A program made the translations under genes and the position numbers. From assembly GCA_023270155.1 (NCBI GenBank), contig JAGLTB010000100.1:1-7773 (forward strand): a DNA stretch of 7,773 nt. The letters run 5' to 3'. The notes under the pieces were generated by a model. That model made no database searches, had not been told where the DNA came from, and saw only the letters and a program-made list of their open reading frames with translations. Shown here piece by piece: positions 56 to 235 of the stretch (the stretch's first letter is position 1; the number at the start of each line of letters is the position of its first letter). The stretch is from Candidatus Heimdallarchaeota archaeon. GTDB lineage: Archaea; Asgardarchaeota; Heimdallarchaeia; Heimdallarchaeales; Heimdallarchaeaceae.

Positions 56-65
56 CCTAGTAAGG
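56..65 (+). repeat. Leader arm of a 10-bp leader/trailer helix flanking the permuted 5S (pairs with 226-235)
   Basis: CCTAGTAAGG (56-65) pairs with CTTTACTAGG (226-235): 9 Watson-Crick pairs plus G64.U227. TCAG (66-69) then stacks directly on it by pairing with CTGA (219-222), leaving A223-A225 as a 3-nt bulge. Confidence 0.6.
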
Positions 66-73
66 TCAGACAA

Positions 74-94
74 CATCTGGATGCGTTCCAGATG
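74..94 (+). other. Perfect 8-bp hairpin in the 5S leader (CATCTGGA-TGCGT-TCCAGATG)
   Basis: Positions 74-81 pair with 87-94 (8 Watson-Crick pairs) around loop TGCGT. The apical AUGCGU (81-86) is identical to the apex of the capped helix I (171-176). Confidence 0.55.
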
Positions 95-103
95 GTCGGG
101 AAA

Positions 104-224
104 GTTAAGTCCTTCAACGTGTGGCTTTGTACTAAGTTCCGCGAGGGCTTGGGAACAGCCGTTCGCTGCGATGCGTCGCGGCCATAGTGAAGGGGTAACA
201 CTCAGACTCATTCCGAACCTGAAA
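104..224 (+). rRNA. 5S rRNA with circularly permuted gene order: 3' half (104-171), UGCG tetraloop cap (172-175), 5' half (176-224)
   Basis: Conserved 5S motifs read on the + strand but in swapped order. 3' half: GTTAAGTCC (104-112), GTACT (129-133), CC-GCGA-GG loop D (139-146), GGGAAC (151-156), GTTC loop A (161-164). 5' half: GCCATAG (181-187), loop C ACTCATTCCGAAC (206-218), CTGAAA (219-224). Hand-folded helices: helix I 165-171/176-182 (7 bp, one G.U). Helix II 187-193/111-118 with a single bulged A116. Helix III 201-205 with 219-222 plus G104, leaving an AA bulge. Helix V 123-126/157-160. The region is GC-rich against AT-rich surroundings. Confidence 0.8.
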
Positions 225-225
225 A

Positions 226-235
226 CTTTACTAGG
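226..235 (+). repeat. Trailer arm of the leader/trailer helix (pairs with 56-65)
   Basis: See the 56-65 arm. It lies immediately 3' of the 5S 5'-half end (CTGAAAA, 219-225). Confidence 0.6.

What the first reader, a model, noticed from the sequence alone, without database searches (positions are those of the whole stretch)
56..235. BHB-like motifs at the new 5S ends predict splicing-endonuclease cleavage and ligation into a roughly 121-nt circular (or re-joined) 5S
Two mutually exclusive registers can be drawn. Each strand in both obeys the 5'-helix, 4-bp helix, 3-nt bulge, helix-3' layout of archaeal bulge-helix-bulge substrates. Register 1: the outer helix 56-65/226-235 (10 bp) stacks on a central helix 66-69/219-222 (TCAG/CUGA). 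A223-A225 forms a 3-nt bulge on the trailer strand and A70-A72 is unpaired on the leader strand. The inner helix is not canonical, because the 74-94 hairpin follows. Register 2: a central helix 97-100/218-221 (CGGG/CCUG, one G.U) is flanked symmetrically by AAA bulges at 101-103 and 222-224. It has a short outer helix 94-96/225-227 and no clear inner helix, so it is closer to a bulge-helix-loop. In register 2, any symmetric pair of cuts followed by ligation regenerates ...CCGAACCUGAAAGUUAAGUCC..., the canonical helix III with its AA bulge, in a 121-nt product. Because helix I is already closed, that product would be a covalently closed circle unless it is reopened. This parallels the reported BHB-dependent maturation of permuted tRNAs and the circularised Thermoproteus SRP RNA. 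Leader 95-99 can also pair with loop C 213-218 (A216 bulged), a possible precursor-only fold.
Basis: inference. Interest (0 to 1): 0.75.

Follow-up and report, generated by a model that had tools for sequence, protein, structure and literature searches.

The report
Permuted 5S rRNA gene, splice-circularised
This Asgard archaeon (Heimdall group) encodes its 5S ribosomal RNA with the two halves in swapped order, flanked by a conserved, co-varying motif of the kind cut by the tRNA-splicing enzyme, which probably explains why 5S genes seemed to be missing from these genomes and predicts a circular 5S rRNA.

Summary
Window 103-224 is a circularly permuted archaeal 5S rRNA gene. Its 3' part (103-171) comes first, a UGCG tetraloop (172-175) caps helix I, and the 5' part (176-224) follows. 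The two halves match the Rfam 5S model at positions 51-115 and 5-51.

The same arrangement occurs in 54 loci from GTDB species-representative genomes, including two complete Heimdallarchaeum genomes. All are Asgard-named (Heimdall, Hod, Odin) or unclassified archaeal MAGs. It also occurs in 19 of 19 metagenome contigs that carry this clade's 5'-half sequence. Standard Rfam annotation misses all of them.

In every lineage the leader and trailer form a bulge-helix-bulge-like motif with compensatory changes. Register 1 (55-65/226-236 plus 66-69/219-222) has strong covariation support. The central helix of register 2 (97-100/218-221) pairs in 23 of 23 relatives. Its 3-bp outer helix and the proposed leader/loop-C pairing are not conserved.

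The most likely mechanism is cleavage by the splicing endonuclease EndA and ligation by RtcB into a closed 5S circle of about 121 nt. In this clade that may go through a 153-nt circular intermediate. No RNA data were available, so cleavage and circularity remain inferred. I found no prior report.

The parts
14..33 (+). Putative archaeal promoter: conserved CCAATAG (14-20) followed by an A/T-rich TATA-like box (ATTCAAAAA, 25-33), centred about 26 nt upstream of the first base of the leader-trailer helix
   Evidence: The motif CCAATAG..ATT[AC]AAAA is conserved at the same distance in most relatives with this leader type. Promoter function is inferred from the usual archaeal TATA-to-start spacing (own knowledge).
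55..65 (+). Leader strand of the outer (processing) helix; pairs with 226-236
   Evidence: Covariation in 10 of 11 pairs.
66..69 (+). Leader strand UCAG of the register 1 central 4-bp helix. It pairs with CUGA at 219-222 and has the same sequence as the native helix III 5' strand (202-205).
   Evidence: CAG is invariant in all 39 distinct type-I relatives. Pair 66-222 is U-A in 17 relatives, C-G in 1 and unpaired in 5. Predicted pairing probability is about 0.77 and the median over 39 relatives is 0.76.
70..73 (+). Unpaired leader bulge or linker (ACAA). Predicted first 5' cut, after C71, under register 1.
   Evidence: Sequence is variable in relatives. The cut position is inferred from the BHB rule (own knowledge).
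74..94 (+). Leader hairpin: 8 bp with loop UGCGU
   Evidence: 6 of 8 pairs with compensatory changes. Its role is unknown. It is proposed to be the flanking helix of the register 2 BHB after the first splice.
97..100 (+). Leader strand CGGG of the register 2 central helix; pairs with CCUG at 218-221
   Evidence: C[AG]GG in all relatives and paired in 23 of 23. The two alternative partners are broken in 12 of 23. Its position matches the BHB leader strand of the lineages without a leader insertion.
101..103 (+). AAA bulge; predicted final 5' cut (A103 or G104 would be the first mature nucleotide)
   Evidence: Conserved as AAA (AUA in one relative). Rfam model position 51 aligns to A103.
103..171 (+). 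3' part of the 5S rRNA: loop B/helix III proximal strand GUUAAG, helix II 3' strand, helices V and IV with GUACU...GGGAA, and the helix I 3' strand (165-171)
   Evidence: Rfam 5S_rRNA model positions 51-115, 22.7 bits. Compensatory changes in helices II, IV and V. A strain variant carries U127-A157 changed to C-G.
172..175 (+). UGCG tetraloop that caps helix I where the canonical 5' and 3' ends would be
   Evidence: The caps in relatives are mostly U-N-C-G type (UGCG, UUCG, UACG).
176..224 (+). 5' part of the 5S rRNA: helix I 5' strand, loop A CCAUAG, helix II 5' strand, helix III (202-205/219-222) and loop C with CCGAAC
   Evidence: Rfam 5S_rRNA model positions 5-51, 27.2 bits, E 1.6e-4.
218..222 (+). 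CCUGA: the helix III 3' strand, the shared partner of native 202-205, leader 66-69 (register 1) and leader 97-100 (register 2)
222..225 (+). A-run bulge between the central helix and the outer helix; predicted 3' cut (after A223 or A224)
   Evidence: Read directly from the sequence. Rfam model position 51 aligns to A224. A 3-nt bulge sits at the same place in all lineages.
226..236 (+). Trailer strand of the outer helix
236..241 (+). T-rich tract (TTCTTT; TTTTTT in most relatives) directly after the trailer helix; probable archaeal transcription terminator
   Evidence: Terminator function is inferred.

Best explanation
The window carries a functional, circularly permuted 5S rRNA gene of a Heimdall-group Asgard archaeon, transcribed as its own unit of about 185 nt.

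- **Gene order.** Leader, then the 3' part of the 5S, then a tetraloop closing helix I, then the 5' part of the 5S, then the trailer.
- **Break point.** It lies at the AA bulge of helix III.
- **Processing motif.** The leader and trailer form a long covarying helix. This helix abuts a 4-bp helix between a leader tetranucleotide and the helix III 3' strand, with 3-nt bulges. That is a relaxed bulge-helix-bulge (BHB) substrate, of the bulge-helix-loop type.
- **Enzymes.** The tRNA-splicing endonuclease EndA cuts in the bulges. RtcB joins the 2',3'-cyclic phosphate and 5'-OH ends. Helix III continuity is restored and the product is covalently closed.
- **This clade.** The motif next to the outer helix (register 1) lies 32 nt upstream of the mature junction. 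I therefore propose two successive splices. Register 1 gives a 153-nt circle (72-224). The freed CCUG then pairs with leader CGGG (register 2) and the leader hairpin serves as the flanking helix. A second cut and ligation removes about 32 nt and leaves the 121-nt circle (103-223).

**Shown here:** the permutation, its conservation, the covariation of the helices, and the canonical junction in the predicted product.

**Inferred:** cleavage by EndA, ligation by RtcB, circularity, and the order of the two steps.
For: - **Permuted 5S.** The Rfam halves abut at model position 51. The rotated sequence and the 121-nt circle fold as a canonical 5S, with helix III probability about 1.
- **Functional gene.** 33 of 53 consensus pairs show compensatory changes across 30 distinct relatives. 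A 98%-identical strain variant has a compensatory pair in helix V.
- **Distribution.** 54 permuted loci in GTDB species-representative genomes, all Asgard-named or unclassified archaeal MAGs, with two copies in each complete Heimdallarchaeum genome. 19 of 19 metagenome contigs with this clade's 5'-half end are permuted and none is contiguous.
- **No canonical copy reported.** The authors of the complete genomes state that 5S genes could not be predicted (PMC8813620). Rfam finds no 5S in 18 loci that hold the permuted gene.
- **BHB covariation.** Register 1 is 94.8% paired, with 11 compensatory pairs and 0 of 500 shuffles. The Hod clade is 83.9% paired, with 8 compensatory pairs; 0 of 500 shuffles reach the observed value on four of the five measures and 4 of 500 on the number of compensatory pairs. 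Across lineages all 4 central pairs and 9 outer pairs covary: CCGG/CCGG, CUGG/CCAG, CGAG/CUCG, CGGA/UCCG, CGUG/CACG, CAAG/CUUG, UCAG/CUGA.
- **Canonical junction.** Cuts after the second bulge nucleotide give the canonical junction in the lineages without an insertion.
- **Register 2.** Its central helix is paired in 23 of 23, while the two alternative partners fail in 12 of 23. The type II paralogue has a canonical register 2 BHB that appears in its minimum-energy fold with probability about 0.74.
- **Thermodynamics.** In 39 linear precursors the median probability is 0.76 for register 1 and 0.004 for register 2. Register 2 rises to 0.34 after an in-silico register 1 splice (window values).
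- **Machinery and precedent.** EndA and RtcB were found in all archaeal genomes examined, including Asgard, and circular 16S and 23S were seen in Asgard (PMC12918454). The permuted SRP RNA of Thermoproteus is circularised through a leader/trailer BHB (PMC4731332).
Against: - No RNA evidence. No junction-spanning sequence was found in the JGI metagenome contigs or IMG/VR, although these are DNA collections.
- Neither register has an inner helix, so the motif is only a relaxed BHB. The type of EndA in these organisms was not determined.
- In register 1, pair 66-222 is unpaired in 5 of 23 relatives, which leaves only 3 central base pairs there.
- Register 2 has no compensatory change, only an A/G change on one side, and its local outer helix is not conserved.
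- After register 1 splicing, the pair that would close the register 2 bulge (72-96) forms in only 27 of 39 relatives.
- In some lineages the predicted ensemble prefers native helix III, or an alternative pairing of the leader tetranucleotide, over the BHB conformer. The BHB central-helix probability is about 0.0 in L084 and 0.05 in L040.
- The cross-lineage motif alignment used registers chosen by my own BHB finder, which inflates its percentage paired.
Confidence: 0.6

Rival explanations
1. Linear permuted 5S. The precursor is trimmed, either by EndA without ligation or by other RNases acting on the leader-trailer stem. The mature 5S stays a two-ended molecule, with its ends at the helix III AA bulge and helix I capped by the tetraloop. 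This is how the brown-algal mitochondrial permuted 5S stays permuted in the final product.
For: - The permuted mitochondrial 5S rRNAs are permuted in the mature RNA (PMC4267664).
- The precursor's minimum-energy fold already shows a complete 5S body with both ends leaving at the helix III bulge.
- Nothing here shows ligation.
Against: - The 4-bp helix, 3-nt bulge and outer helix geometry is conserved and covaries. The leader tetranucleotide tracks the helix III 3' strand in every lineage. That points to EndA, whose products RtcB normally ligates (PMC4731332).
- The AAA bulges on both sides make the ligated junction insensitive to the exact cut position.
- The break sits inside a conserved helix III element rather than at a tolerant junction.
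Confidence: 0.2
2. Single splice at register 1 only. The mature molecule is a 153-nt circle in which the leader hairpin (74-94) and C[AG]GGAAA remain as an expansion segment inserted at the helix III bulge.
For: - Register 1 is the only register with covariation in its outer helix.
- The hairpin and positions 97-103 are about as conserved as parts of the 5S body.
Against: - In the same genomes, the type II genes place the homologous hairpin outside a canonical register 2 BHB, so their product lacks it.
- Lineages without the insertion produce circles of 120-124 nt.
- The A/G-only variation at position 98 fits pairing with U220.
- The insertion would disrupt the conserved AA bulge.
Confidence: 0.12
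3. Circular intermediate that is re-opened. After BHB-dependent circularisation the helix I tetraloop is excised. This regenerates conventional 5' and 3' ends, the mirror image of the circularise-then-open route of Pyrococcus 23S.
For: Circularisation followed by opening at another site is documented for the P. furiosus 23S rRNA (PMC7758197, listed).
Against: - The caps are tight 4-nt loops of U-N-C-G type on a covarying helix I, with no recognisable processing motif.
- The permuted SRP RNA of Thermoproteus stays circular.
Confidence: 0.05
4. Non-functional remnant or assembly artefact: a decayed tandem duplication or a chimeric join that is not expressed as 5S.
For: The standard Rfam model fails at the gathering score.
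Against: - An identical architecture appears in independent assemblies from ENA, Logan, NCBI and JGI, and in closed long-read genomes.
- Compensatory changes run through all 5S helices.
- A promoter-like motif and a T-run terminator are conserved.
- No contiguous alternative was found.
Confidence: 0.01

Closest known systems
Permuted SRP RNA gene of Thermoproteus tenax and T. uzoniensis (Plagens et al. 2015, PMC4731332)
   Same: - An essential structured ncRNA whose canonical gene seemed to be missing.
- The 3' part is encoded upstream of the 5' part.
- The leader and trailer fold into a BHB at the new ends.
- EndA cleavage and ligation give a circular functional RNA.
   Different: - The RNA here is 5S rRNA, not SRP RNA.
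- The trait spans a large part of the Asgard radiation rather than one genus.
- In this clade there appear to be two nested, mutually exclusive BHB registers and a conserved leader hairpin.
- Cleavage and circularity are shown experimentally for SRP RNA but only inferred here.
Circularly permuted tRNA genes of Cyanidioschyzon merolae (Soma et al. 2007; review PMC3978253)
   Same: - Permuted gene order.
- A BHB-like motif formed by the leader and trailer.
- A circular RNA formed by the splicing machinery. Some of these genes combine permutation with introns, i.e. several BHBs.
   Different: - Those are eukaryotic nuclear tRNAs, and the circle is an intermediate opened by RNase P and tRNase Z.
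- Here helix I is capped and no opening site is evident.
BHB processing stems of archaeal 16S and 23S pre-rRNA, including the permuted 23S of Pyrococcus furiosus (PMC7758197) and circular 23S in ribosomes (PMC12918454)
   Same: - A leader-trailer helix containing a BHB.
- EndA and RtcB produce circular rRNA species.
- Circular rRNA can be the ribosomal form.
   Different: - Those genes are collinear, and any permutation arises after transcription.
- 5S rRNA is explicitly described as not going through this route (PMC12918454).
- Here the gene itself is permuted and circularisation restores the canonical connectivity.
Permuted mitochondrial 5S rRNA of brown algae and other stramenopiles (Valach et al. 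2014, PMC4267664; their mtPerm-5S model)
   Same: A 5S rRNA in which helix I is closed by a hairpin loop and the ends lie elsewhere.
   Different: - It is organellar.
- The ends lie at the junction of domains alpha and gamma, not in the helix III bulge.
- The final RNA stays permuted and no BHB is involved.
- The Rfam scans of the window returned only 5S_rRNA and one snoRNA family.
Canonical archaeal 5S rRNA (Rfam RF00001)
   Same: All helices and the loop A, C and E motifs are present. The joined product has the consensus spacing CUGA-AA-GUUAAG.
   Different: The gene order is permuted, helix I is capped, and the contiguous model score is below the gathering threshold (21.5 versus 38 bits).

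Membership tests
5S rRNA (Rfam RF00001) | Contiguous match to the covariance model at or above the gathering score (38 bits) | tested here: not met
   No hit at the gathering score. The best contiguous hit is 84-174 at 21.5 bits, with a 35-position deletion.
5S rRNA (Rfam RF00001) | Sequence and structure of both halves of the model are present | tested here: met
   178-224 matches model positions 5-51 (27.2 bits, E 1.6e-4). 103-169 matches model positions 51-115 (22.7 bits, E 3.5e-3). The two halves abut at position 51.
5S rRNA (Rfam RF00001) | Three-domain fold (helices I-V) maintained by compensatory substitutions | tested here: met
   The RNAalifold consensus of 30 distinct relatives recovers helices I, II, III, IV and V, and 33 of 53 pairs are compensatory. 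The rotated or circular sequence folds as a canonical 5S.
Archaeal bulge-helix-bulge (hBHBh') splicing-endonuclease substrate | Central helix of 4 bp | tested here: met
   Register 1 is 66-69/219-222, with three invariant pairs and U-A/C-G at the fourth, which is unpaired in 5 of 23. Register 2 is 97-100/218-221, paired in 23 of 23. All four pairs covary across lineages.
Archaeal bulge-helix-bulge (hBHBh') splicing-endonuclease substrate | Two 3-nt bulges on opposite strands, each directly 3' of its central-helix strand | tested here: met
   Register 1 has A70-A72 and A223-A225. Register 2 has A101-A103 and A222-A224. The layout is the same in all lineages.
Archaeal bulge-helix-bulge (hBHBh') splicing-endonuclease substrate | Outer flanking helix next to the bulge | tested here: met
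   Met for register 1: 55-65/226-236, with 10 of 11 pairs compensatory. Not met for the local 3-bp helix of register 2, which is 56% paired, the same as shuffles.
Archaeal bulge-helix-bulge (hBHBh') splicing-endonuclease substrate | Inner flanking helix (h') between the strand after the leader bulge and the strand before the trailer's central strand | tested here: not met
   No pairing of 73.. with ..218 in register 1, or of 104.. with ..217 in register 2 (inner = 0). The motif is therefore a relaxed hBH-loop form.
Archaeal bulge-helix-bulge (hBHBh') splicing-endonuclease substrate | Cleavage by EndA and ligation by RtcB | not testable with these tools
   No enzymology or RNA data here. Published work reports EndA and RtcB in all archaeal genomes examined, including Asgard (PMC12918454).
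Permuted ncRNA genes restored by circularisation (Thermoproteus SRP RNA type) | 3' part encoded upstream of the 5' part in one transcription unit, with the canonical termini joined | tested here: met
   Order 103-171, loop 172-175, then 176-224. A promoter-like motif lies upstream and a T-run downstream.
Permuted ncRNA genes restored by circularisation (Thermoproteus SRP RNA type) | Leader and trailer form the BHB at the new ends, and the ligated product has the canonical sequence | tested here: met
   The junction CUGA-AA-GUUAAG equals the Rfam consensus spacing.
Permuted ncRNA genes restored by circularisation (Thermoproteus SRP RNA type) | No canonical gene copy in the genome | tested here: inconclusive
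   Whole genomes could not be scanned here. The authors of the closed Heimdallarchaeum genomes report that no 5S could be predicted (PMC8813620). No contiguous version of this clade's 5S is in the JGI metagenome contigs, against 19 permuted copies.
Permuted ncRNA genes restored by circularisation (Thermoproteus SRP RNA type) | Junction-spanning RNA reads, or RNase R resistance | not testable with these tools
   Only DNA collections could be searched. No junction sequence was found.
Mitochondrial permuted 5S (brown algae; mtPerm-5S model of Valach et al. 2014) | Ends at the junction of domains alpha and gamma, and a mature RNA that stays permuted | tested here: not met
   The break here is at the helix III AA bulge, model position 51. 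The Rfam scans of the window returned only 5S_rRNA and one snoRNA family. The description of the family comes from PMC4267664.

The most novel reading that the evidence does not exclude
In the archaeal lineages closest to eukaryotes (Heimdallarchaeia including Hodarchaeales, and at least one Odinarchaeota-labelled MAG), every 5S rRNA gene is circularly permuted and the ribosomes carry a covalently circular 5S rRNA made by the tRNA-splicing machinery. In the window's clade the circle would be made by two nested, sequential BHB splices: a 153-nt circle first, then removal of a hairpin 'intron' of about 32 nt. This would be the first permuted 5S gene in any cellular (non-organellar) genome and the first circular 5S as the functional ribosomal form.
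Probability: 0.4. Interest if true: 0.9.

Novelty: new variant of a known kind. Interest (0 to 1): 0.85.

Why it matters
- **A stated gap.** The authors of the closed Heimdallarchaeum genomes could not find a 5S rRNA gene by any method (PMC8813620). Standard Rfam annotation misses the gene in every locus examined here. This probably also affects rRNA-based quality scores for Asgard MAGs (my inference).
- **A new substrate.** BHB/EndA/RtcB-mediated repair of permuted genes is known for tRNA and SRP RNA. This would extend it to 5S rRNA, the one rRNA said not to use that route.
- **A structural prediction.** It predicts a ribosome with a circular 5S in the closest archaeal relatives of eukaryotes.
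- **A testable system.** It gives a conserved case for asking how permuted RNA genes arise and persist. The junction sequences, substrates and enrichment cultures needed for the tests are already defined.
- **A possible marker.** The trait may also serve as a rare genomic change for Asgard phylogeny.

Tried and rejected
- **Standard annotation tools.** Rfam at the gathering score and ARAGORN on the window gave no hits. Searching the two halves separately, so that truncated matches were allowed, was what showed the permutation.
- **Register 2 outer helix 94-96/225-227.** Present in the window but only 56% paired in relatives, equal to shuffles. Rejected as a conserved element.
Only 68.7% paired, and pair 98-214 is broken in 12 of 23. 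Rejected.
- **Leader 95-100 with the helix III 5' strand 201-207.** This pairing appears in the register-1-constrained minimum-energy fold. It is only 73.9% paired and pair 98-203 is broken in 12 of 23. Rejected as conserved.
- **A base pair closing the register 2 bulge after register 1 splicing (72-96).** It forms in only 27 of 39 relatives, so the two-step model stays tentative.
- **Search for a contiguous (unpermuted or spliced) version of this clade's 5S.** 0 hits in JGI metagenome contigs. The 19 positive-control hits were all permuted genes. 0 hits in IMG/VR. These collections hold DNA, so the result says nothing about the RNA.
- **Literature searches for a permuted or circular archaeal 5S.** Nothing found.
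- **Not possible or not used.** The sigma-70 promoter and terminator scanner was not used because the organism is an archaeon.
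Full report
**Observation**

- The repeat finder reports arms 56-66 and 225-235 (11 nt, 91% complementary) and a perfect 8-bp hairpin at 74-81/87-94.
- Segment 50-242 folds to -68.8 kcal/mol, z = -3.6 against dinucleotide shuffles.
- Register 1 (UCAG 66-69 with CUGA 219-222, A223-A225 bulged) and register 2 (CGGG 97-100 with CCUG 218-221, AAA at 101-103 and 222-224, GGU 94-96 with ACU 225-227) are both present. They exclude each other because they share the 218-222 strand.

**Is it a permuted 5S?**

Rfam finds nothing at the gathering score. 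It finds only a gapped 21.5-bit 5S hit at 84-174. I then searched the halves separately so that truncated matches were allowed.
- 178-224 matches 5S_rRNA model positions 5-51 (27.2 bits, E 1.6e-4).
- 103-169 matches model positions 51-115 (22.7 bits, E 3.5e-3).
- The halves abut at the same model position, the second A of the helix III AA bulge.
- Between them, 165-171 and 176-182 form helix I, capped by UGCG (172-175).
- The rotated sequence, and a 121-nt circle (103-223), fold as a textbook 5S with helix III probability about 1.

**Source and relatives**
- The flanking YccF gene places the window on ENA, Logan and NCBI metagenome contigs that are identical across the 5S region.
- One 98%-identical variant carries a compensatory U127-A157 to C-G change in helix V.
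- A pattern requiring 3'-half motifs followed by the loop C motif hit 86 places in the GTDB species-representative genomes.
- 54 of these are permuted 5S genes. All are in MAGs or closed genomes titled Heimdall-, Hod-, Odin-, Promethearchaeota, or (one each) Thor- and Hermodarchaeota, or in unclassified archaea.
- The other hits are ordinary 5S genes of Thermoplasmata, Halobacteria and a few other archaea followed by a chance YCGAAC, or chance bacterial matches.
- Both closed Heimdallarchaeum genomes have two copies.
- Rfam at the gathering score finds no 5S in 18 loci that contain the permuted gene.
- In JGI metagenome contigs, a contiguous version of this clade's 5S has 0 matches.
- The clade-specific 5'-half end has 19 matches there, all with the permuted arrangement.
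- RNAalifold on 30 distinct precursors recovers all 5S helices, the leader hairpin and the outer helix. 33 of 53 pairs show compensatory changes.
- The gene is therefore real, functional and the normal form in this group.

**The flanks**

An exhaustive search for the layout helix, 4 bp, 3-nt bulge, helix was run on each locus. It gave the same answer everywhere.
- A leader tetranucleotide pairs with the 3' strand of helix III.
- A 3-nt bulge follows on each strand.
- A leader-trailer helix of 5-15 bp abuts the trailer bulge.
- In the lineages without a leader insertion (Hod clade, Odin L040, L036, L070, L012, L022) the leader strand sits 2-3 nt before GUUAAG. Cutting after the second bulge nucleotide gives products of 120-124 nt, with the canonical junction ...CCGGAA|GUUAAG... 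in the Hod-type lineages and ...CACGGA|AGUUAAG... in Odin L040; L036 and L070 give variant junctions (...CUCGAU|AGUUAAG..., ...UCCGAU|AGUUAAG...).
- The cut position follows from the geometry of canonical tRNA introns (my own knowledge). The BHB definition and the EndA/RtcB roles are as stated in PMC4731332.

Covariation is strong.

| Alignment | Sequences | Paired | Pairs with compensatory change | Shuffles reaching the observed values |
|---|---|---|---|---|
| Hod clade | 17 | 83.9% | 8 of 15 | 0 of 500 on four of five measures; 4 of 500 on compensatory pairs |
| Cross-lineage motif | 19 | 91.1% | 13 of 13 | 0 of 500 on four of five measures; 5 of 500 on compensatory pairs |

- In the cross-lineage alignment the central helix runs through CCGG/CCGG, CUGG/CCAG, CUGG/UCGG, CGAG/CUCG, CGGA/UCCG, CGUG/CACG, CAAG/CUUG, CCAG/CUGG and UCAG/CUGA. 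The covariation score is 0.94 against 0.26 for shuffles.
- The registers in that alignment were picked by my finder, so its percentage paired is inflated. The offsets to the conserved anchors are nearly constant, which limits the freedom.

**The window's own clade (type I)**

Here the outer helix is followed by N-CAG (register 1), a 4-5-nt linker, the hairpin, 2 nt, and then C[AG]GG-AAA-GUUAAG (register 2).
- Register 1 in 23 relatives is 94.8% paired, 11 of 15 pairs are compensatory, and 0 of 500 shuffles reach this. The slid controls are 16-54% paired.
- Pair 66-222 is U-A in 17 relatives, C-G in 1 and unpaired in 5.
- The register 2 central helix is paired in 23 of 23, but the only variation is A or G at position 98 opposite U220.
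- The register 2 3-bp outer helix is no better than shuffles.
- Two other conceivable partners for 95-100 are broken in 12 of 23 because A98 cannot pair with C. These are loop C 213-218 and the helix III 5' strand 201-207.
- So CAG at 67-69 and C[AG]GGAAA at 97-103 are both under constraint, and each fits pairing with the same CCUG(A) strand.
- A second gene type in the Heimdallarchaeum genomes (L032, L065, L108, L115) has a canonical register 2 BHB: outer helix GUGGU/ACCAC, central helix CAGG/CCUG, AAA bulges. The hairpin and a 12-bp distal stem lie outside it. This BHB is in the minimum-energy fold with probability about 0.74.
- In that gene type the hairpin is therefore discarded and the product is the 121-nt form.

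**Thermodynamics**

| Molecule | Register 1 (CAG/CUG) | Native helix III | Register 2 |
|---|---|---|---|
| Window, linear precursor | about 0.77 | about 0.18 | 0.002 |
| Window, 153-nt circle after register 1 splice | strand removed | 0.10 | 0.25, and present in the minimum-energy fold |
| 39 type-I relatives, linear (median) | 0.76 | 0.05 | 0.004 |
| 39 type-I relatives, circle (median) | strand removed | 0.05 | 0.34 |

- A register-1-constrained fold costs 0.1 kcal/mol over the minimum-energy fold.
- The numbers fit a sequential model. Register 1 is cut and ligated first, giving the 153-nt circle 72-224. Register 2 then forms with the hairpin as its flanking helix. A second splice removes about 32 nt and leaves the 121-nt circle.
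- The model is inferred, not shown. The pair that would close the register 2 bulge (72-96) forms in only 27 of 39 relatives.

**Transcription unit**
- A conserved CCAATAG..ATT[AC]AAAA motif (window 14-33) lies about 26 nt before the first base of the outer helix.
- A T-run follows the trailer helix directly.
- Both are consistent with an independent archaeal promoter and terminator. This is inference.

**Comparison with known systems**
- The closest precedent is the permuted SRP RNA gene of Thermoproteus. There a leader/trailer BHB is cut by the splicing endonuclease and the ends are ligated into a functional circle (PMC4731332).
- Permuted tRNA genes of C. merolae (PMC3978253) work alike, as do the BHB stems of archaeal 16S and 23S. 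These include the permuted Pyrococcus 23S (PMC7758197) and circular 23S within ribosomes (PMC12918454).
- PMC12918454 reports EndA and RtcB in all archaeal genomes examined and circular 16S and 23S in Asgard archaea. It describes 5S as the rRNA that does not use this route.
- The brown-algal mitochondrial permuted 5S differs. Its ends lie at the alpha/gamma junction, its final RNA stays permuted, and no BHB is involved (PMC4267664).
- Six full-text searches found no report of a permuted or circular archaeal 5S. The library lacks most subscription journals.

**Verdict**
- My probabilities are: permuted functional gene about 0.97, EndA-type processing about 0.75, a covalently closed product about 0.6, and the two-step route about 0.35.

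Noticed in passing
L001 10783-12717 (minus strand in the locus); about 96 nt upstream of window position 1, same strand as the 5S: In the source contig, a 644-aa ORF with a weak Cas12f1-like/TnpB zinc-finger Pfam hit ends just upstream of the 5S promoter region. In the close relative L074 a tRNA gene (L074 1492-1571) lies near that side instead. This may be an IS element inserted next to the 5S gene.
   Followed up: no
L077 6822-6893, L044 5530-5617, L032 6779-6862, L065 7422-7505, L074 1492-1571, L058 4912-4990, L025 977-1063, L012 3294-3379: tRNA genes lie within about 100-250 nt of the permuted 5S gene in many loci, on either strand. None of the loci shows a 16S or 23S gene next to the 5S, so the 5S is unlinked from the rRNA operon.
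   Followed up: partly
L032 and L077 (CP084166); L044 and L065 (CP084167); also L025/L031, L043/L082 and L042/L090 within single MAGs: Several genomes carry two permuted 5S genes with nearly identical mature parts but different leaders and trailers. Type I has a register 1 motif plus the hairpin. Type II has a canonical register 2 BHB plus a 12-bp distal stem.
   Followed up: partly
window 80-86 and 170-176: The leader hairpin loop and the helix I cap share the identical 7-mer GAUGCGU. In relatives the two loops vary independently (for example cap GAUUCGU with hairpin GAUGCGU), so this may be a coincidence between two U-N-C-G-type loops.
   Followed up: partly
window 14-33: A conserved upstream motif, CCAATAG followed by an ATT[AC]AAAA box, is found at a fixed distance in most type I relatives and in a related form in type II. 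It is a candidate BRE/TATA promoter specific to these 5S genes.
   Followed up: partly
L006 447-746 (equivalent to window 1-300): A 98%-identical strain variant from an independent SRA run has six differences. Two of them form a compensatory pair in helix V (U127-A157 changed to C-G). The other four lie downstream of the trailer.
   Followed up: yes
window 296-730 (+) against 310-687 (-): The 144-aa plus-strand ORF is antisense to the YccF-family membrane protein gene (Pfam E 1.7e-41). It is almost certainly spurious.
   Followed up: partly
L084, L045, L052, L073 and other Hod-clade loci; leader about -45 to -25 and trailer about +20 to +35 relative to the mature ends: Beyond the 9-bp BHB outer helix, the Hod-clade leaders and trailers contain a second complementary segment (for example GCGCCAAUAAC with AUUAGGCGC). 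This suggests a longer two-part processing stem.
   Followed up: no
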